Shown here: piece after piece, positions 1-6,450 of the stretch
Layout: each line of letters opens with the position of its first letter
Numbering within the stretch: the stretch's first letter is position 1
UHGV virus genome: UHGV-1667404
Strand: one strand, 5' to 3'
Origin: a virus
DNA length: 10,204 bases
Position numbers and translations under genes: made by a program
The notes under the pieces: generated by a model
The model's database searches: none
Told to the model about the DNA's origin: nothing
What the model saw: only the letters and a program-made list of their open reading frames with translations

Positions 1-434
1 TGGTTATCTGCATCATCGTCTGCCTGTCATGGGCTGTTAATCATTACCGTGATAACGCCATCGCCTACAAAGAACAGCGCGACAAAAATGCCAGAGAACT
101 GAAGCTGGCGAACGCGGCAATTACTGACATGCAGATGCGTCAGCGTGATGTTGCTGCGCTCGATGCAAAATACACGAAGGAGTTAGCTGATGCGAAAGCT
201 GAAAATGATGTTCTGCGTGATGATGTTGCCGCTGGTCGTCGTCGGTTGCACATCAAAGCAGTCTGTCAGTCAGTGCGTGAAGCCACCACCGCCTCCGGCG
301 TGGATAATGCAGCCTCCCCCCGACTGGCAGACACCGCTGAACGGGATTATTTCACCCTCCGGGAACGACTGGTAATGATGCAGGCCCAACTTGAAGGTGC
401 TCAGCAATACATAACCGAGCAGTGTTTAAAGTAA
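1..434 (+). CDS. Rz: Rz i-spanin (inner-membrane spanin subunit of the lysis cassette), 5'-truncated at the window edge
   Basis: The frame is open from base 3 and reads [91 protein letters not shown]...QYITEQCLK, stop 432-434. This matches the lambda Rz sequence as I recall it, including the TM segment and coiled-coil periplasmic domain. The ORF-track start at 129 is an internal Met; the true start lies upstream of the window. Equivalent to rzpR in Rac-type prophages. Confidence 0.9.
190..375 (+). CDS. Rz1: Rz1 o-spanin (outer-membrane lipoprotein), entirely embedded in the +1 frame of Rz
   Basis: 61-aa product [24 protein letters not shown]...[21 protein letters not shown] has a lipoprotein signal peptide with lipobox LVVVG|C followed by a proline-rich mature part, typical of lambda Rz1. 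AAGGAG at 176-181 sits 8 nt upstream of ATG 190. Equivalent to rzoR in Rac-type prophages. Confidence 0.88.
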
Positions 435-514
435 AATCTTAACTACAATATGATTCATTTTGATGATTGTTTCATAAGGAACAGTGAAGTAAGATCTAAG
501 AGGAGTTAAATTTT

Positions 515-560
515 ATACAGTATAATCATAATATTGCAGTAAGGTGGTTATAATTGAAAG
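515..560 (+). promoter_or_regulatory. Candidate sigma70 -10 elements upstream of trkG (TATAAT at 521-526 and 549-554); no convincing -35
   Basis: Two perfect TATAAT hexamers lie in the AT-rich 435-571 intergenic region. AT-rich DNA yields such hexamers by chance and no good TTGACA is found at 17 +/- 1 bp, so this is only a weak prediction. Confidence 0.2.
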
Positions 561-571
561 AATATTTAGAT

Positions 572-2029
572 ATGAATACATCTCATGTAAGAGTTGTTAC
601 TCATATGTGTGGGTTCCTGGTTTGGCTCTATAGTCTTTCAATGTTGCCACCAATGGTTGTAGCATTGTTTTATAAAGAAAAAAGCCTGTTCGTTTTCTTT
701 ATAACTTTCGTTATATTTTTTTGCATTGGTGGCGGAGCGTGGTATACAACTAAGAAATCTGGCATTCAATTACGTACCCGTGATGGGTTTATTATAATTG
801 TAATGTTTTGGATTTTGTTTTCTGTTATTAGTGCATTCCCTTTATGGATTGACTCAGAACTTAATTTAACGTTCATTGATGCTCTGTTTGAAGGGGTTTC
901 TGGAATAACAACAACAGGAGCAACTGTAATTGATGATGTTAGTTCATTACCTCGGGCATATTTGTACTATCGGTCACAGTTAAATTTTATAGGTGGTTTA
1001 GGAGTTATTGTTCTGGCGGTTGCTGTATTGCCATTATTGGGTATTGGTGGTGCAAAGCTTTATCAGTCAGAAATGCCGGGGCCATTTAAGGATGACAAAC
1101 TCACTCCCCGCCTGGCCGATACGTCACGGACACTGTGGATAACTTATTCTTTATTAGGTATTGCTTGTATTGTCTGTTATAGACTTGCAGGAATGCCTTT
1201 GTTTGATGCTATTTGTCACGGGATTTCCACAGTTTCGCTTGGTGGTTTCTCAACTCATAGCGAGAGTATCGGATATTTTAATAACTATTTGGTTGAGCTG
1301 GTGGCTGGTTCTTTTTCCCTGCTATCGGCTTTCAACTTCACTCTTTGGTATATTGTTATTAGCAGGAAAACGATAGAACCTTTAATCAGAGATATTGAAC
1401 TTCGTTTCTTTCTGTTAATAGCCTTAGGGGTGATCATTGTTACCTCTTTCCAGGTCTGGCATATAGGTATGTATGACTTGCATGGAAGTTTTATTCATTC
1501 GTTTTTTCTTGCCAGCTCCATGCTCACTGATAATGGTTTAGCTACGCAGGATTATGCAAGTTGGCCCACGCACACGATAGTGTTTTTGCTGTTGTCAAGT
1601 TTCTTTGGGGGATGTATAGGTTCAACTTGTGGTGGAATTAAGTCACTTCGATTTCTTATACTTTTCAAACAAAGCAAACACGAGATAAATCAGCTTTCTC
1701 ATCCCAGAGCGTTGTTGAGTGTAAATGTAGGAGGGAAGATAGTTACAGATCGTGTAATGAGGTCTGTATGGAGTTTCTTTTTTCTTTATACTCTCTTCAC
1801 GGTGTTTTTTATACTGGTGTTAAATGGTATGGGATATGATTTTCTTACATCATTTGCAACAGTGGCTGCATGTATTAATAATATGGGATTAGGTTTTGGG
1901 GCTACTGCATCGTCATTCGGAGTGCTTAATGACATTGCAAAATGTTTAATGTGCATAGCTATGATTCTTGGTCGCCTTGAAATTTATCCTGTTATTATAT
2001 TGTTTTCAGGTTTTTTTTGGCGCTCCTAA
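572..2029 (+). CDS. trkG: TrkG/TrkH-family potassium uptake membrane protein (cargo gene)
   Basis: 485-aa polytopic membrane protein from ATG 572 (MNTSHVRVVTHMCGFLVWLYSL...). It shows four pore-loop-like glycine motifs typical of the Trk/Ktr/HKT superfamily (SGITTTGATV, SLGGFSTHS, MLTDNGLATQ, NNMGLGFGATAS). From memory the sequence matches E. coli TrkG, which is encoded in the Rac prophage. An in-frame TTG at 554 with GGTGG at 543-547 is an alternative start. The gene is visibly much more AT-rich than its flanks. Confidence 0.92.
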   Translation: MNTSHVRVVTHMCGFLVWLYSLSMLPPMVVALFYKEKSLFVFFITFVIFFCIGGGAWYTTKKSGIQLRTRDGFIIIVMFWILFSVISAFPLWIDSELNLTFIDALFEGVSGITTTGATVIDDVSSLPRAYLYYRSQLNFIGGLGVIVLAVAVLPLLGIGGAKLYQSEMPGPFKDDKLTPRLADTSRTLWITYSLLGIACIVCYRLAGMPLFDAICHGISTVSLGGFSTHSESIGYFNNYLVELVAGSFSLLSAFNFTLWYIVISRKTIEPLIRDIELRFFLLIALGVIIVTSFQVWHIGMYDLHGSFIHSFFLASSMLTDNGLATQDYASWPTHTIVFLLLSSFFGGCIGSTCGGIKSLRFLILFKQSKHEINQLSHPRALLSVNVGGKIVTDRVMRSVWSFFFLYTLFTVFFILVLNGMGYDFLTSFATVAACINNMGLGFGATASSFGVLNDIAKCLMCIAMILGRLEIYPVIILFSGFFWRS

Positions 2030-2166: not shown

Positions 2167-2958
2167 ATGAGCGAGAAATTAAAGATAGTCTATCGCCCAT
2201 TACAAGAATTGTCACCGTATGCGCACAACGCCAGGACGCACAGCCCTGAGCAGGTGGCACAACTGGTAGAAAGTATTAAGCAATTCGGCTGGACTAATCC
2301 GGTGCTGATTGACGAAAAGGGCGAAATTATTGCGGGTCACGGTCGTGTTATGGCGGCTGAAATGCTCAAAATGGATTCTGTTCCGGTCATTGTTCTGTCT
2401 GGCCTGACGGATGAGCAGAAAAAGGCGTACCGCCTGGCAGATAATCGCCTGCCGATGAATGCTGGCTGGGATGAAGATCTGTTGCGGATGGAGCTGTCGG
2501 ACCTAATCAATGCTGATTTTGATGTCTCCCTGACAGGCTTCATCCCGACAGAAATTGATGAACTGTTGACGGATGTTTTGCCCGGTACAGGAAATGAGGA
2601 GGAGCCGTATACGACGAAAATTGATACGCCTGTTTATGAGCCGTCGGGCGGTAAACCGGATATCAGTGAACTGTACGACGATACGAAAACTCAGGAGCTG
2701 ATCAGCCGGATACGTTCGGCGTCCCTTGAGCCTGATATTGAGAAATTCCTCCTGTGTGCGGCAGAACGTCACACGGTGTTTAATTTCAGCAGAATTGCGG
2801 ACTATTACGCTCACGCCCCCTCTGAAATTCAGTGTTTTTTCGAGGAGTCGGCGCTGGTGATCATTGATTATCAGCAGGCTATTGAAAATGGATTTGTCCG
2901 GATGACGCAGCGCATGGTGGAGATCATGCATGGTGGTGAGGAGGAGGAATATGCGTGA
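2167..2958 (+). CDS. ParB/Srx-like nuclease-domain protein (ParB N-terminal domain), phage accessory protein
   Basis: The N-terminus KIVYRPLQELSPYAHNARTHSPEQVAQLVESIKQFGWTNPVLIDEKGEIIAGHGRVMAAEMLKMDSVPVIVL follows the ParB N-terminal pattern (beta strand, NARxH-type box, G-rich helix, GxxR box in place of GERR). The C-terminal half is acidic with no motif I recognise. AAGG sits 5 nt upstream of ATG 2167. From memory the corresponding Rac gene in K-12 is the short remnant ynaK. Confidence 0.8.
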   Translation: MSEKLKIVYRPLQELSPYAHNARTHSPEQVAQLVESIKQFGWTNPVLIDEKGEIIAGHGRVMAAEMLKMDSVPVIVLSGLTDEQKKAYRLADNRLPMNAGWDEDLLRMELSDLINADFDVSLTGFIPTEIDELLTDVLPGTGNEEEPYTTKIDTPVYEPSGGKPDISELYDDTKTQELISRIRSASLEPDIEKFLLCAAERHTVFNFSRIADYYAHAPSEIQCFFEESALVIIDYQQAIENGFVRMTQRMVEIMHGGEEEEYA

Positions 2959-3883
2959 TGATTTTTGCGCCTTTATTCTGACTCACGGGCGACCGGACAA
3001 AGTTCTGACTTACCGGACGTTGCGTCGTGCTGGCTATACCGGGAAAATTTTTATCGTTGTTGATGATGAAGATAAGACACGGAATCAGTACATGGCTGAA
3101 TTTGGTGAACAGGTGCTGGTGTTTTCCAAAGCCGATATCGCCAGTCGTTTTGACGAAGCCGATAATTTCTGTGACCGCCGCTCAATTTTTTACGCCCGTA
3201 ATGCCTGTTTCGACCTGGCAAAACTGGTCGGGTGTAAATACTTCATTCAGCTCGATGATGATTATCACGAGTTCCAGTTTCGGGTGGATCGCAACTATGA
3301 CCAGGCCTATTTTCCGATAAGGAAACTGGATGCGATCCTTTCTGAAATGCTGGCGTACTACGAATCAATACCTGCTCTTTCCATCGCTATGTCGCAGGGC
3401 GGGGATTTTCTTGGTGACAATGGCGGCCATGCTTCGTGGGTGAAACGCAAGGCAATGAACAGCTTTATCTGTTCGGTTGATCGACCGTTCTCATTCATGG
3501 GGCGCATTAACGAGGATGTGAATACGTACACGAATCTCGGTCGCTGTGGTGAATTGTTTATGACGATCGGTGCTGTCCAGTTAGGGCAGAAACAGACGCA
3601 GAAAAACAGCGGCGGAATGACCGAGCTGTATCTGGATTCCGGAACCTACGTTAAAAGTTTTTACTCCGTCATGTATGCGCCGTCGTGCGTAAAAATCTCA
3701 CTGATGGGTGCCAGCCATAAACGCATTCACCATCAGGTCACCTGGAACAACGCTGCAGTAAAAATCCTTCACGAAAAATACAGGAAGAAGACACCCTGCA
3801 TATCAATGGGGGTGACAAATGATTCCGTATTCGAAAGTCGAGTCTCTGGCAGCGTGCCGGATGACTGCACAACAAATCGCTGA
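2951..3883 (+). CDS. Hypothetical protein with GT-A-like (nucleotide-diphospho-sugar transferase) N-terminal motifs; function unknown
   Basis: Strong RBS GAGGAGGAGG (2938-2947) directly upstream of ATG 2951; the start overlaps the ParB-like stop (ATGCGTGA), indicating translational coupling. N-terminus MRDDFCAFILTHGRPD...GKIFIVVDDEDK...KYFIQLDDDYHEF has the spacing of GT-A strand1 / DD / DxD motifs. No SAM-binding (FxGxG, DPPY) or P-loop motif, and no obvious TM segments. The family assignment is inference from motif spacing only. Confidence 0.6.
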   Translation: MRDDFCAFILTHGRPDKVLTYRTLRRAGYTGKIFIVVDDEDKTRNQYMAEFGEQVLVFSKADIASRFDEADNFCDRRSIFYARNACFDLAKLVGCKYFIQLDDDYHEFQFRVDRNYDQAYFPIRKLDAILSEMLAYYESIPALSIAMSQGGDFLGDNGGHASWVKRKAMNSFICSVDRPFSFMGRINEDVNTYTNLGRCGELFMTIGAVQLGQKQTQKNSGGMTELYLDSGTYVKSFYSVMYAPSCVKISLMGASHKRIHHQVTWNNAAVKILHEKYRKKTPCISMGVTNDSVFESRVSGSVPDDCTTNR

Positions 3884-4070
3884 CGTTCTGGATGTTGATC
3901 TGAACCGACTGAAAGAAAATCGGGAAGCAATGACAGATTTTTATGCGGCCATCCGTAAGGGCAGAGCGAAAGGTGAAGCCGAGTTACGAGCGGCATTGTT
4001 TAAGCTTGCCAGAAAAGGGGATGCCTTTGCTCTGCGCGAACTACTCAGGGTGGATAAAAATCAGGACTAA
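3819..4070 (+). CDS. Small HTH-containing protein (83 aa), possibly a packaging-associated DNA-binding protein
   Basis: ATG 3819 preceded by GGGGTGA. The product contains an HTH-like segment (MTAQQIADVLDVDLNRL) and a basic helical tail. It overlaps the 3' end of the upstream gene by 65 nt in another frame, and its stop at 4068-4070 lies 3 nt before the terS ATG. An internal ATG at 3861 is an alternative start. The overlap lowers confidence. Confidence 0.5.
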   Translation: MIPYSKVESLAACRMTAQQIADVLDVDLNRLKENREAMTDFYAAIRKGRAKGEAELRAALFKLARKGDAFALRELLRVDKNQD

Positions 4071-4073
4071 CTG

Positions 4074-5168
4074 ATGAGCAGACCGGACTGGGGGGCGTTG
4101 CAGCAGGAGTATATTGCTGAATACACCCGCTCCGGTATATCTCCGGTGGCATGGTGTGAAGCAAGGGGACTGAATTACGCAACAGCCCGTCGTTACATCA
4201 AAAAAACTCCGAAAAATGCGCAGACAGAAATGTGCAAAACTGCGCAAAAAAGTGCGCAGAAAAAATCTGCGCAGACTGCACAAAAGCGGAACGAAAAATC
4301 TCAGGAAAAAAAGCCAGTATTCGATGCGGGCCTGAATGAGGGCGACGCGGAGGAATTTTCGTTCTGTCCCGATGAATTCGGCATTTCTGACCAGCAGGCT
4401 AAGTTTGCGATGCTTGTTGCTCAGGGTAAAAAGCCGACAGAGGCGTACCGACTAGCCGGTTATGAGGGGCAAGGTGCGACAGCTAACAGCAACGCCAGTC
4501 GTATGCTTAGAAATGCCAGGGTTTTTCGCGCTATCAGCTACTTCCGCAATCAGTACCAGAAACGCTATACCGCAGACCTGGATTTACTAGTGAGTCAGTT
4601 GATGGCTATTGTCCTGGCCGACCCCAATCAGCTTGCACAATTTCGCCGTGTTAACTGCCGTTATTGCTGGGGCGAGAATCATCTCTACCAGTGGCGCGAT
4701 ATAGCAGAATTCGACAAGGCAGCGGCGCAGGCTTCCAGAGATGGCAAACCCGAACCGGAATATGGAGGCCTCGGCTTTGTTGATAACGCCATACCCAATC
4801 CGGACTGCCCGAAGTGCTGCGGTGAGGGAACGGGACAGCTTTATATGGCTGATACCACTCTGCTTGATGGGGATGCGCGGCAATTATATGCAGGGGCAAA
4901 ATTCGGAAAATTCGGCGTTGAGATCCTGCTGGAGGATAAGGCTGCCGCCCGGCGTGAATTGTTGCGTTTGTTTTCTGCTGGCGGGGCTTTATGTGCAGAT
5001 AAACGGCTACAGGAACTGGAAATTGAACGGCGCAGAATGGAAAACCAGAAGCTGCGCAAAGAGATCGAAACGGTGGAAGATAATGAACATCCCCAGCCTG
5101 TGGCGATCAATATTAATGTGGTTGATGCCAGAGTAAGGAGTGATGAAGATGATCTCTCCGACGCTTAA
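4074..5168 (+). CDS. terS: Terminase small subunit (P27/Terminase_2-like core) with N-terminal HTH, low-complexity linker and C-terminal Cys-rich extension
   Basis: AGGA at 4063-4066 sits 7 nt before ATG 4074. Residues ~105-160 (QQAKFAMLVAQGKKPTEAYRLAGYEGQGATANSNASRMLRNARVFRAISYFRNQ) match the P27-family TerS signature (F...G...eAy..AGY....A...asrLL.n..V...I). N-terminal HTH-like GISPVAWCEARGLNYATARRYIKK. C-terminal CRYC...CPKCC motif and a coiled-coil tail. Lies immediately upstream of, and overlaps, the large terminase gene. Confidence 0.8.
   Translation: MSRPDWGALQQEYIAEYTRSGISPVAWCEARGLNYATARRYIKKTPKNAQTEMCKTAQKSAQKKSAQTAQKRNEKSQEKKPVFDAGLNEGDAEEFSFCPDEFGISDQQAKFAMLVAQGKKPTEAYRLAGYEGQGATANSNASRMLRNARVFRAISYFRNQYQKRYTADLDLLVSQLMAIVLADPNQLAQFRRVNCRYCWGENHLYQWRDIAEFDKAAAQASRDGKPEPEYGGLGFVDNAIPNPDCPKCCGEGTGQLYMADTTLLDGDARQLYAGAKFGKFGVEILLEDKAAARRELLRLFSAGGALCADKRLQELEIERRRMENQKLRKEIETVEDNEHPQPVAININVVDARVRSDEDDLSDA
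4217..4282 (+). repeat. Array of six palindromic TGCGCA-type hexamers (TGCGCA x4, TGTGCA, TGCACA), each followed by an A-rich tract, spaced 9-15 bp; candidate pac / TerS-binding site inside terS
   Basis: Hexamers start at 4217, 4231, 4241, 4253, 4268 and 4277. The region encodes the low-complexity linker KNAQTEMCKTAQKSAQKKSAQTAQK, suggesting DNA-level constraint. Pac sites of P22- and SPP1-type phages lie in or next to terS. The repeat is seen directly; the function is inferred. Confidence 0.5.
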
Positions 5169-6450
5169 TGTGCCTCAGGCGCGATTTCTTTCAATGCCCC
5201 ATAAATTTAAAGCCTATATTGCTGGTTTTGGCTCGGGCAAAATATGGGTTGGGTGTGGCGGCATATGCAAGGGGATTTGGGAGCATCCAGGTATAAATCA
5301 GGGATATTTTGCGCCAACGTATCCCCAAATTCGCGATATTTTTTACCCTACAGTAGAAGAAGTTGCTGCTGACTGGGGATTGAACGTAAAAATTAATGAG
5401 GGAAATAAAGAGGTTCACTTTTATTACGGACGCCAGTATCGGGGAACCACTATCTGCAGATCGATGGAGAAGCCACAAACGATCGTCGGTTTCAAAATTG
5501 GTAATGCGTTGGTGGATGAACTGGACATTTTGCCGAAGGAAAAAGCCAGAACGGCGTGGCGCAAGATAATTGCACGTATGCGTTATAAGATTGATGGACT
5601 TCGCAACGGTATTGACGTTACAACCACGCCGGAAGGATTCAAATTTGTCTACGAGCAGTTTGTTAAAGCCGTGCGTGAAAAAACAGAGCTGGCCTCACTG
5701 TATGGTCTGGTGCAGGCATCTACTTTCGATAATGAAAAGAACCTGCCAGCAGATTACATTCCTTCGCTTCTTGAATCATACCCTCCAGAGCTGATTAAAG
5801 CCTATCTTCGAGGACAGTTTACTAACCTGACAAGTGGTACTGTTTACCATCAGTTTGACCGGAAACTGAATAATTGCGAAGAAGTGGAGCAGCCAGGGGA
5901 GCCGATTTATATTGGGATGGATTTTAACGTTGGAAAGATGGCGGGAATCGTCCATGTGCTGCGTTTGGGGCTTCCATGTGCGGTAACTGAAATCATCAAT
6001 GCCTACGATACGCCGGATATGATCCGCATCATTAAAGAACGCTTCTGGCTGTATGATGGGAATGATTACCGGAAAGTGAGGGAAATTTATATTTATCCAG
6101 ATGCTTCCGGGGATTCCAGAAAATCAAGTAACGCAAGTACGACGGATATAGCCCAGCTTAAGCAGGCTGGTTTTAACGTTGTGGTGAACAGCTCGAACCC
6201 GCCAGTAAAAGATCGCGTTAACTCAATGAATGCAATGTTCTGCAATGCCAATGGTGAGCGTCGCTATAAAGTTAATGTGAAGCGTTGCCCGTTATATGCC
6301 GAATCTCTGGAGCAACAGGTCTGGGATGAGAAGGGGGAGCCTGATAAAAAATCTGGCAATGATCACCCGAATGATGCCGGAGGTTATTTCATCGTTAAGC
6401 AATTCCCTATTGTCAAACCGACCGGAAGAGTCACATCACTTCGGATTTAA
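5143..6450 (+). CDS. terL: Terminase large subunit (ATPase + nuclease)
   Basis: N-terminal deviant Walker A YIAGFGSGKIWVGCGG, mid-protein LVDELDIL (Walker B-like), and a C-terminal RNaseH-like nuclease region (IYIGMDFNVGK ... IYPDASGD ... DHPNDAGGY). AGGAG at 5135-5139; possible starts are GTG 5140 (ORF track), ATG 5143 or ATG 5149. Overlaps the terS 3' end. Confidence 0.87.
   Translation: MKMISPTLNVPQARFLSMPHKFKAYIAGFGSGKIWVGCGGICKGIWEHPGINQGYFAPTYPQIRDIFYPTVEEVAADWGLNVKINEGNKEVHFYYGRQYRGTTICRSMEKPQTIVGFKIGNALVDELDILPKEKARTAWRKIIARMRYKIDGLRNGIDVTTTPEGFKFVYEQFVKAVREKTELASLYGLVQASTFDNEKNLPADYIPSLLESYPPELIKAYLRGQFTNLTSGTVYHQFDRKLNNCEEVEQPGEPIYIGMDFNVGKMAGIVHVLRLGLPCAVTEIINAYDTPDMIRIIKERFWLYDGNDYRKVREIYIYPDASGDSRKSSNASTTDIAQLKQAGFNVVVNSSNPPVKDRVNSMNAMFCNANGERRYKVNVKRCPLYAESLEQQVWDEKGEPDKKSGNDHPNDAGGYFIVKQFPIVKPTGRVTSLRI

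What the first reader, a model, noticed from the sequence alone, without database searches (positions are those of the whole stretch)
4074..5168. Unusually long multi-domain small terminase with a Cys4-like cluster
The Terminase_2-like core occupies only about 60 residues of a 364-aa protein. It is preceded by an HTH and the repeat-encoded linker, and followed by about 200 residues containing CRYC (codons at about 4656-4667) and CPKCC (codons at about 4806-4820), a possible zinc ribbon, plus a coiled-coil tail. Typical P27-family TerS proteins are roughly half this size. The extra domains could be a fused accessory (DNA-binding or regulatory) module. With the small HTH ORF immediately upstream, the packaging-recognition apparatus here looks atypical.
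Basis: inference. Interest (0 to 1): 0.45.

Follow-up and report, generated by a model that had tools for sequence, protein, structure and literature searches.

The report
Zinc-knuckle small terminase with extra HTH
This is the DNA-recognition (small terminase) subunit of a common Rac-like E. coli prophage. It is twice the usual size because it carries an invariant four-cysteine, probably zinc-binding, module inside its ring-forming core and an extra DNA-binding head. That design is normal for a large but structurally unstudied family.

Summary
The 364-aa ORF (4074-5168, +) and its CRYC/CPKCC motifs are real and sit at the stated coordinates. The "extra 200 C-terminal residues" reading is wrong. 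Pfam Terminase_2 spans aa 122-321 and is split by an insert of about 80-90 aa. This insert replaces a 13-residue connection in the solved SF6 G1P small terminase.

In 121 representatives sharing at most ~50% identity, C195, C198, G200, C245, C248, G250 and G252 are invariant (CxxCxG...CPxCxGxG). AlphaFold models the module at pLDDT ~95. No solved structure resembles it. It is acidic, so a structural or protein-contact role is likelier than DNA binding.

The subfamily has at least 1,200 50%-identity clusters and includes the TerS of phages F116 and Bcep22. Members always lie directly upstream of terL.

The N-terminal HTH plus linker is an add-on, present in 25 of 121 representatives and in most enterobacterial relatives. 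No gene-fusion artefact was found.

The linker-coding DNA carries 4-6 short repeats (TGCGCA here, kept in two reading frames in relatives). The repeat motif changes with the N-terminal HTH type, which makes it a candidate pac site. The upstream 83-aa ORF is a conserved partner gene.

Verdict: an ordinary TerS function, in an undescribed structural variant.

The parts
4074..5168 (+). terS: 364-aa small terminase subunit (Terminase_2 family, Cys4-insert subfamily, long form)
   Evidence: ORF. Pfam PF03592 scores 34.5 bits against a cut-off of 26.1. phrog_51 matches over the full length, E 1.7e-75. RefSeq WP_000089447.1 is named 'terminase small subunit'. The gene is found in 907 of 5426 complete E. 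coli genomes.
4074..4208 (+). Accessory N-terminal HTH (aa 1-45), not part of Terminase_2
   Evidence: AF2 helices 6-20, 24-31 and 35-38 with pLDDT 88-95. It matches the N-termini of other TerS PHROGs (370, 2606, 1711) and, below threshold, the IS66 TnpA HTH. No Pfam model matches. An N-terminal extension of at least 60 aa is present in 25 of 121 representatives.
4209..4367 (+). Flexible K/Q/A-rich linker (aa 46-98)
   Evidence: pLDDT <50 for aa 62-88. Its length and sequence vary among alleles, and some assemblies read it in other frames.
4217..4282 (.). DNA repeat array: 4 x TGCGCA (4217, 4241, 4253, 4268) plus TGTGCA (4231) and TGCACA (4277). It includes the 21-bp palindrome TGCGCAGA-N5-TCTGCGCA at 4253-4273. 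Candidate pac / TerS-binding site.
   Evidence: There are 4 copies in 57 bp against 4 copies in the other 10,147 bp (Poisson 1e-8). Homologous arrays occur in L005, L009 and L010 in two reading frames.
4368..4568 (+). Terminase_2 HTH DNA-binding domain (aa ~99-165), net charge +6
   Evidence: The family profile aligns to the SF6 G1P DBD (3zqp, 4zc3, 2cmp) and to Pam5 TerS. pLDDT is 95-98. Charge.
4569..4652 (+). First long helix of the oligomerisation core (aa 148-181) and strand beta1 (aa 188-193)
   Evidence: AF2 secondary structure. Aligns to SF6 G1P chain residues up to 103.
4653..4829 (+). Cys4 insert (aa 194-252): C195-x2-C198-x-G200, helix 210-222, GGxGF loop 231-235, C245-P-x-C248-x-G250-x-G252. 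Predicted zinc-knuckle pair.
   Evidence: C195, C198, G200, C245, C248, G250 and G252 are invariant in 121 sequences. pLDDT is 97-98. 8 of 121 homologues hit Pfam DnaJ_CXXCXGXG, best E 1.8e-5. Net charge is -4 here and the family median is -3.
4830..4973 (+). Strands 253-258, 272-278 and 281-286 and the start of the second core helix (canonical Terminase_2 C-terminal part)
   Evidence: AF2. Aligns to SF6 G1P chain 117-153.
4974..5165 (+). Long helix to aa 336 (coiled-coil-like) and acidic tail (aa 337-364, net -5). Presumed TerL-binding end.
   Evidence: AF2 helix 289-336. phrog_29114 matches aa 258-364. The tails differ between homologues paired with different TerL families. The TerL-binding role is inferred, not tested.
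3819..4070 (+). 83-aa HTH-like ORF (RefSeq calls a 69-aa version from 3861). Conserved small partner gene upstream of long Cys4 TerS genes.
   Evidence: phrog_309 'terminase small subunit', E 8e-23. 35% identity to aa 11-81 of the 129-aa TerS of Pasteurella phage Pmp13. 123 clusters of 81-93 aa across Enterobacterales. Adjacent to terS in L014-L017.
5149..6450 (+). terL (Terminase_6N + Terminase_6C). Overlaps the 3' end of terS by 20 nt.

Best explanation
The ORF is the functional small terminase (TerS) of a Rac-like lambdoid prophage that packages DNA by the pac/headful route. It belongs to a large, uncharacterised subfamily of Terminase_2.

In this subfamily the short connection (beta-hairpin 'cap') between the two helices of the ring-forming core has been replaced by a subdomain of about 90 aa. 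The base of that subdomain is clamped by two invariant knuckles (CxxCxG and CPxCxGxG). These most likely bind one structural Zn2+.

The module is acidic and rich in invariant Gly, Pro and aromatic residues. Its likeliest job is to build and stabilise an enlarged cap at one end of the TerS ring, possibly as a docking surface for TerL or another protein. Reading DNA is less likely.

DNA recognition is assigned to the basic Terminase_2 HTH. In the long form, a second, exchangeable N-terminal HTH is tethered by a flexible basic linker.

The DNA that encodes this linker carries an array of short palindromic repeats (TGCGCA here). I propose that this array is the pac site bound by the N-terminal HTH.

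The divergent C-terminal helix and acidic tail would engage the TerL encoded immediately downstream.

Shown here: family membership, the insertion topology, Cys invariance, the confident fold, synteny, and the repeat arrays. Inferred: Zn binding, the cap position in the ring, the role in assembly or TerL contact, and pac function.
For: TerS identity:
- Pfam Terminase_2 scores above its cut-off, and phrog_51 matches over the full length.
- terS overlaps terL and is followed by portal and MuF genes.
- Every homologue inspected lies directly upstream of a terL and a portal gene.

Insertion topology:
- The Pfam envelope is aa 122-321 against 110 profile positions.
- The profile aligns to SF6 G1P chain 21-103 and 117-153, with about 94 profile positions in between.
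- The review PMC9611059 describes a variable inserted beta-hairpin that caps one end of the channel at this place.

Cys4 module:
- C195, C198, G200, C245, C248, G250 and G252 are invariant. R196, Q206, E212, G231, G232, G234, P241 and P246 are at least 90% conserved in 121 sequences sharing at most ~50% identity.
- pLDDT is 95-98, and the knuckles flank strands 188-193 and 253-258.
- 8 of 121 homologues hit DnaJ_CXXCXGXG.
- The insert has a median net charge of -3 and is negative in 97 of 121, whereas the HTH median is +4.

Family size and members:
- 1,648 representatives at E<=1e-3 and 1,208 at E<=1e-10.
- Cultured phages F116, phiC725A, Bcep22, BcepIL02, DC1, PEp14 and others carry it.
- phiC725A read coverage rises from about position 23,500, which lies inside its terS, and its packaging is headful (PMC5217972; coordinates).

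Repeat arrays.
Against: - Zn binding is not demonstrated.
- The window protein itself does not hit any zinc-finger Pfam model.
- The position of the module in the oligomer is inferred from a monomer model and from a sequence alignment to SF6 G1P.
- Nothing tests a TerL contact.
- Many copies of this prophage are defective, with IS insertions in or near the cassette. Function in this particular copy is therefore not guaranteed.
Confidence: 0.7

Rival explanations
1. One reading: the long protein is a fusion, by gene fusion or frameshift, of a short TerS with a separate C-terminal accessory DNA-binding or regulatory zinc-ribbon module.
For: The protein is twice the usual TerS size. Rare fused or rearranged variants exist. 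Rac-SA53 is annotated 'gpOterS; fusion of two genes by deletion'. There are also 565-aa TAGT+Terminase_2 and 616-aa tail-fibre chimeras.
Against: The Cys module lies inside the Terminase_2 envelope, with canonical Terminase_2 sequence on both sides. All 126 full-length representatives carry both CxxC motifs in one ORF. No split homologue appeared in the searches. The N-terminal 100 aa were not found upstream of the two short-form genes checked. The chimeras are singletons.
Confidence: 0.03
2. The Cys4 module is a nucleic-acid-binding zinc ribbon that contributes directly to pac recognition, analogous to the zinc fingers of herpesvirus pUL56/pUL28.
For: Zinc ribbons often bind nucleic acids (general knowledge). 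Herpesvirus TerS-like subunits use zinc fingers (PMC9611059). R191, R192 and R196 next to the first knuckle are conserved in 78-98% of sequences.
Against: The insert is net negative in 97 of 121 homologues, median -3. Its invariant residues are Gly, Pro, Cys and aromatics, which is typical of a structural scaffold. Two basic HTH domains are already present. There is no structural match to known zinc ribbons.
Confidence: 0.15
3. The four cysteines do not bind zinc. They bind iron in a rubredoxin-like centre or form reversible disulfides, which would make packaging initiation redox-sensitive.
For: The CxxC...CPxC spacing is also typical of rubredoxin-type knuckles (general knowledge). Nothing in the data distinguishes between metals.
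Against: A cytoplasmic structural Cys4 site with CxxCxGxG knuckles is the DnaJ-type Zn pattern, and 8 of 121 homologues hit that Pfam model. There is no redox partner in the neighbourhood.
Confidence: 0.07
4. The repeat-encoded linker is only a low-complexity spacer produced by slippage. The TGCGCA array has no DNA-level function, and pac lies elsewhere.
For: The region is A-rich with homopolymer runs. Alleles differ by unit number and by apparent frameshifts. No packaging data exist for this prophage.
Against: TGCGCA is kept in two reading frames in relatives that share ~40% TerS identity. GCGCA is preceded by T in 21 of 23 linker cases against 19 of 78 outside the linker (Fisher 7.7e-9). All nine long-form genes examined have an array of 3-6 repeats (4-6 in eight of the nine), and the motif changes with the N-terminal HTH type.
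Confidence: 0.35

Closest known systems
SF6/SPP1 G1P small terminase (Pfam Terminase_2; PDB 3zqp, 3zqq, 4zc3, 2cmp)
   Same: Both have an HTH DNA-binding domain, a long core helix and a strand-helix C-terminal part that align by profile (E 1.1e-16). In both, the gene lies directly upstream of terL, and a pac/headful lifestyle is expected.
   Different: G1P is 164 aa with a 13-residue connection where this protein has about 92 aa, including the Cys4 module. G1P has no second N-terminal HTH or linker and no long C-terminal coiled coil.
TerS of Pseudomonas phage F116/phiC725A and Burkholderia phages Bcep22/BcepIL02/DC1 (annotated only)
   Same: They carry the same Cys4 insert, at 35-47% identity over aa 184-290, and lie directly upstream of terL. 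F116-like phages are generalized transducers with headful packaging that starts near terS (PMC5217972).
   Different: They are short forms (F116 TerS is 271 aa) without the N-terminal HTH, linker or repeat array. None has been studied biochemically, as far as I could find.
DnaJ-type CxxCxGxG zinc centre (Pfam PF00684)
   Same: The second knuckle, CPKCCGEG, fits CxxCxGxG exactly, and the first, CRYCWG, fits CxxCxG. 8 of 121 homologues reach E<=0.01 against PF00684.
   Different: There is one pair of knuckles rather than four. The roughly 46 aa between them contain a helix and a GGxGF loop. The window protein itself does not hit the model. No structural match was found.
pac sites inside terS or pacA genes: P22 (22 bp in gene 3), SPP1 (multiple contact boxes), P1 (hexamer arrays within pacA)
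   Same: The candidate recognition repeats lie inside the gene for the recognition subunit, as for P22 (PMC9611059). Arrays of short hexamers are the P1 pattern (my own knowledge, not checked here).
   Different: pac function is untested here. The array sits in DNA that encodes a disordered linker next to a dedicated extra HTH, and its motif changes with that HTH type.
Herpesvirus terminase subunits pUL28/pUL56 with zinc fingers
   Same: The packaging-recognition subunit contains Cys-based metal sites (PMC9611059).
   Different: The fold and size are unrelated (an ~85 kDa helical solenoid). No homology was detected.

Membership tests
Terminase_2 small terminase (PF03592) | Match to the family HMM above the curated threshold | tested here: met
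   34.5 bits against a cut-off of 26.1, aa 122-321. 120 of 121 homologues also match.
Terminase_2 small terminase (PF03592) | N-terminal HTH DNA-binding domain homologous to SF6/SPP1 G1P | tested here: met
   The profile aligns to 3zqp chain 21-103, 4zc3 and 2cmp (E 1e-16 to 4e-9). AF2 helices 106-146 have pLDDT >95.
Terminase_2 small terminase (PF03592) | Gene immediately upstream of, and co-oriented with, terL and portal | tested here: met
   terS ends at 5168 and terL starts at 5149. The same arrangement is seen in all 13 related loci inspected.
Terminase_2 small terminase (PF03592) | Ring oligomer (8-11 subunits) built from a helical-hairpin core | not testable with these tools
   Only monomer models could be made. 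Two long helices (148-181 and 289-336) are compatible with this.
Terminase_2 small terminase (PF03592) | Binds pac DNA and recruits or regulates TerL | not testable with these tools
   Needs biochemistry or genetics.
   No such NCBIfam hit at E<=1. Pfam gives only Terminase_2.
Zinc ribbon / zinc-knuckle Cys4 domain | Four conserved Cys in two CxxC knuckles, each followed by Gly | tested here: met
   C195, C198, G200, C245, C248, G250 and G252 are invariant in 121 sequences.
Zinc ribbon / zinc-knuckle Cys4 domain | The knuckles are brought together in space with tetrahedral geometry | tested here: inconclusive
   AF2 is confident (pLDDT 97-98) and places the knuckles next to strands 188-193 and 253-258.
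Zinc ribbon / zinc-knuckle Cys4 domain | Structural or profile similarity to a known zinc-ribbon or zinc-finger family | tested here: inconclusive
Zinc ribbon / zinc-knuckle Cys4 domain | Stoichiometric Zn2+ binding | not testable with these tools
   Needs metal analysis.

The most novel reading that the evidence does not exclude
Long-form Cys4 small terminases carry a self-contained, exchangeable pac-recognition cassette. This consists of an N-terminal HTH and, in the DNA encoding the adjoining linker, the array of short repeats that this HTH binds. The arrays are TGCGCA, TGCGAATTCGCA, GGGGCA or GGTACGC, according to the HTH type. Recognition domain and site would therefore move together between phages. 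The conserved ~85-aa HTH protein encoded just upstream, together with the zinc-clamped cap of the ring, would complete a two-protein initiation complex of a kind not described for any model phage.
Probability: 0.3. Interest if true: 0.65.

Novelty: new variant of a known kind. Interest (0 to 1): 0.42.

Why it matters
How small terminases recognise pac DNA is still described as 'elusive and controversial' (PMC9611059). All solved phage TerS proteins are small (15-21 kDa) and bind DNA weakly in vitro.

This family offers a different and abundant design. It is present in about 17% of complete E. coli genomes and in transducing phages such as F116. It has a probable metal-clamped cap, a second tethered HTH, a defined repeat array inside its own gene, and a conserved small partner protein.

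If the array is pac, it gives an easily testable system for specific TerS-DNA recognition, with natural specificity variants. It would also help predict packaging start sites and lateral or generalized transduction from these widespread prophages.

If not, the result is still a useful annotation. The Cys4 module is a conserved insertion in Terminase_2, not a fusion artefact.

Tried and rejected
- PDB sequence search with the single protein gave only a weak HTH hit to Pam5 TerS.
- Foldseek of the full model against the PDB gave weak TerS hits only (PaP3, NV1, 2ao9), all with E>0.1.
- Pfam and NCBIfam scans of the isolated N-terminal domain, the Cys module and the small ORF found nothing meaningful.
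- Literature searches for zinc, CXXC or zinc ribbon in phage small terminases found nothing relevant. Searches for TAGT + ParB + terminase found nothing, and 'Rac prophage + terminase + trkG' gave nothing useful.
- Split-gene hypothesis: tblastn of the N-terminal 100 aa against the DNA upstream of the two short-form terS genes checked gave no hit.
- The 80-aa and 302-aa ORFs upstream of the Pantoea-type terS (L005) are not homologous to the 83-aa ORF or to TAGT here.
- The TerL of Pasteurella phage Pmp13 is not similar to this TerL, so the small ORF is not simply the native TerS of this TerL type.
- Rfam found no RNA family in the window.
- There is no sigma-70-like promoter in 3600-5400. The terminator-like hits on the minus strand are the TGCGCA palindromes themselves.
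- Model coordinates are not exposed, so the Cys-Cys distances could not be measured.
Full report
**1. What is there**

The window is part of a Rac-like lambdoid prophage of E. coli. The gene order is Rz/Rz1, trkG, a ParB-like gene, a TAGT-family glycosyltransferase, an 83-aa ORF, the ORF in question, terL (Terminase_6N/6C), portal (DUF4055), a MuF-like minor head protein and DUF6651.

The segment 3700-5400 is 100% identical to several E. coli chromosomes. It is found in 907 of 5426 complete genomes, and RefSeq names the ORF 'terminase small subunit' (WP_000089447.1).

The ORF 4074-5168 encodes 364 aa (40.9 kDa).

**2. Anatomy**

Pfam finds one domain, Terminase_2. Its envelope is aa 122-321 against only 110 profile positions.

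A profile of 121 homologues aligns to the solved SF6 G1P small terminase in two blocks: chain 21-103 (HTH plus first core helix) and chain 117-153 (strand plus second helix). About 94 family-specific positions lie between them. The Cys cluster is therefore an insertion into the oligomerisation core, not a C-terminal appendage.

The review PMC9611059 states that this is the place where some TerS proteins carry a beta-hairpin capping one end of the channel.

AlphaFold2, run with the 121-sequence alignment, gives a mean pLDDT of 85.5, with 95-98 for aa 100-300. The elements are:
- HTH1: helices 6-20, 24-31 and 35-38.
- A disordered linker: pLDDT <50 for aa 62-88.
- The Terminase_2 HTH: aa 106-146.
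- Helix 148-181.
- Strand 188-193, then C195/C198.
- Helix 210-222.
- C245/C248, then strand 253-258.
- Helix 266-271.
- Strands 272-278 and 281-286.
- Helix 289-336.
- An acidic tail.

The isolated region 184-290 is modelled at pLDDT 94.7.

**3. Are the cysteines conserved?**

An exhaustive HMMER search with aa 95-330 found 1,648 50%-identity cluster representatives at E<=1e-3, of which 1,208 have E<=1e-10. Essentially every full-length representative has CR[YH]C, then about 50 aa, then CPxC.

In the 121-sequence alignment, C195, C198, G200, C245, C248, G250 and G252 are invariant. R196, Q206, E212, G231, G232, G234, P241, P246 and D260 are at least 90% conserved. C249 is not conserved.

The second knuckle fits the DnaJ CxxCxGxG pattern, and 8 of 121 homologues reach significance against Pfam DnaJ_CXXCXGXG, while 120 of 121 match Terminase_2.

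No solved structure resembles the module. No paper in the searchable library mentions a metal site in a phage TerS.

The insert is acidic: net -4 here, family median -3, negative in 97 of 121. The Terminase_2 HTH is basic: +6 here, median +4. I therefore favour a structural zinc clamp that builds an enlarged cap, perhaps a protein-docking surface, over a DNA-reading zinc finger.

**4. Is the length unusual?**

Relative to solved TerS proteins (15-21 kDa), yes. Relative to its own family, no.

Cys4-bearing members have a median length of 259 aa. 84 of 121 have at most 25 aa before the Terminase_2 HTH, and 25 of 121 have an N-terminal extension of at least 60 aa like this one.

Among Enterobacterales, the long form of 313-380 aa dominates.

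Cultured phages with the module include F116, phiC725A, Bcep22, BcepIL02, BcepMigl, DC1, BcepB1A, BcepC6B, PEp14, SopranoGao, Parlo and Yersinia vB_YenM phages. Where the matching gene is annotated in these records, it is annotated as TerS.

F116's gene is 271 aa and lies directly before terL. In phiC725A, virion read coverage rises from about position 23,500. That position lies inside its terS, and packaging there is headful (PMC5217972; coordinates).

All related loci examined have the gene directly upstream of terL and portal, but the TerL families differ and so do the TerS C-terminal tails.

No split homologues or frameshift signatures were found. The few chimeric proteins (Rac-SA53 'gpOterS', the TAGT-TerS fusion, the tail-fibre fusion) are rare rearrangements.

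**5. The linker and its DNA**

The linker-coding DNA holds TGCGCA at 4217, 4241, 4253 and 4268, with variants at 4231 and 4277. It includes a 21-bp palindrome at 4253-4273. That is four copies in 57 bp against four in the remaining 10,147 bp (Poisson 1e-8).

Three relatives with about 40% TerS identity (L005, L009, L010) have 5-6 copies at the same place. In them, some copies are read as xxT-GCG-CAx (Ala-Gln/His) and others as xTG-CGC-Axx (Leu/Val-Arg).

Within these four linkers, GCGCA is preceded by T in 21 of 23 cases, against 19 of 78 elsewhere in the same loci (Fisher 7.7e-9). The hexamer is therefore maintained at the DNA level.

Other clades carry other arrays:
- The Salmonella/Klebsiella clade, whose HTH1 reads AKRYIK instead of ARRYIKK, has TGCGAA/TTCGCA five or six times, partly as TGCGAATTCGCA.
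- Relatives with a different HTH1 type have GGGGCA arrays (Erwinia, Serratia) or GGTACGC arrays (Yersinia), separated by A-runs.

The P values for these last motifs are post hoc. Phylogeny confounds the co-variation.

Some assemblies read the linker in other frames and still give K/R-rich peptides. This fits a peptide under weak constraint, but sequencing errors cannot be excluded.

I read the array as a candidate pac/TerS-binding site, coupled to its recognition domain. This is inference only.

**6. The upstream ORF**

The 83-aa ORF matches phrog_309 ('terminase small subunit'). It is 35% identical to aa 11-81 of the 129-aa TerS of Pasteurella phage Pmp13, which lies between a ParB-like gene and terL.

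It is not a relic. It forms a family of 81-93-aa proteins across Enterobacterales, with 123 clusters and identity down to about 51%.

In Erwinia, Yersinia and Serratia prophages it abuts a long Cys4 terS, preceded by ParB + TAGT or by a ParB-methyltransferase fusion, whatever the TerL type. The ORF's function is unknown.

**7. Verdict**

The fusion or accessory interpretation is rejected.

The protein is an ordinary TerS by function and annotation. It represents a large, structurally uncharacterised Terminase_2 variant with three features: a probable zinc-clamped cap, a second HTH, and an intragenic repeat array.

Confidence levels:
- TerS identity: about 0.95.
- Zn binding: about 0.8.
- Structural or cap role: about 0.5.
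- Array = pac: about 0.35-0.4.

Noticed in passing
window 4217-4282; L005 4138-4238; L009 3138-3214; L010 3138-3247; L003 4132-4188; L011 3147-3191; L014 3926-3987; L015 3881-3989; L016 3905-3957: Every long-form terS examined has an array of 3-6 short repeats (4-6 in eight of nine loci) in the DNA that encodes the disordered linker. The motif is TGCGCA here, kept in two reading frames in relatives; elsewhere it is TGCGAA/TTCGCA, GGGGCA or GGTACGC. The motif changes with the N-terminal HTH type. This is a candidate pac site travelling with its recognition domain.
   Followed up: partly
window 3819-4070 (+): The 83-aa HTH-like ORF belongs to a conserved 81-93-aa family (123 clusters, no Pfam) that abuts long Cys4 terS genes in Erwinia, Yersinia and Serratia prophages. 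It resembles the N-terminal two thirds of the 129-aa TerS of Pasteurella phage Pmp13.
   Followed up: partly
window 2167-3883 (+); L014 2005-3553; L015 1782-3516; L016 1783-3210: A ParB/Srx-like protein plus a TET-associated glycosyltransferase (TAGT, also called 'GREB1-related') sits directly upstream of the packaging genes. In Serratia it is a ParB-N6/N4 methyltransferase fusion instead. This is a conserved DNA-modification module linked to this TerS type, and no TET/JBP gene is present in the window.
   Followed up: no
window 129-2029: Rz with an embedded Rz1 lipoprotein gene is followed by trkG (potassium transporter), the Rac-type cargo inserted between the lysis and packaging genes.
   Followed up: no
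proteins P0010, P0016, P0021, P0023, P0028-P0031, P0035, P0036, P0042 (alleles of window 4200-4300): Several database alleles read the linker in the other two frames (for example KKLRKMRRQKCAKLRKK or KCADRNAQNCAKKCAEK) and return to frame downstream. These are either real compensated frameshifts in A-runs or homopolymer sequencing errors.
   Followed up: no
one search hits H22, H23; L001 11361-12638: In some E. coli strains IS3 elements interrupt the terS region, and in strain H7 an IS1 truncates the DUF6651 head gene. Many copies of this prophage are therefore decaying.
   Followed up: no
proteins P0006, P0025, P0033; L002 2912-3940: Rare chimeric ORFs join this TerS to a tail-fibre protein (616 aa) or to TAGT (565 aa). 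In phage Rac-SA53 a deletion fuses gpO to TerS, removing HTH1 but keeping the linker and core.
   Followed up: partly
L011 4061-5506; L014 4722-6107; L005 5262-6878; L016 4758-6029: The same TerS family is paired with unrelated TerL families (Terminase_6N, Terminase_3, and 423-543-aa proteins with no Pfam hit). The TerS C-terminal tails differ accordingly, which points to modular exchange at the terS/terL junction.
   Followed up: partly
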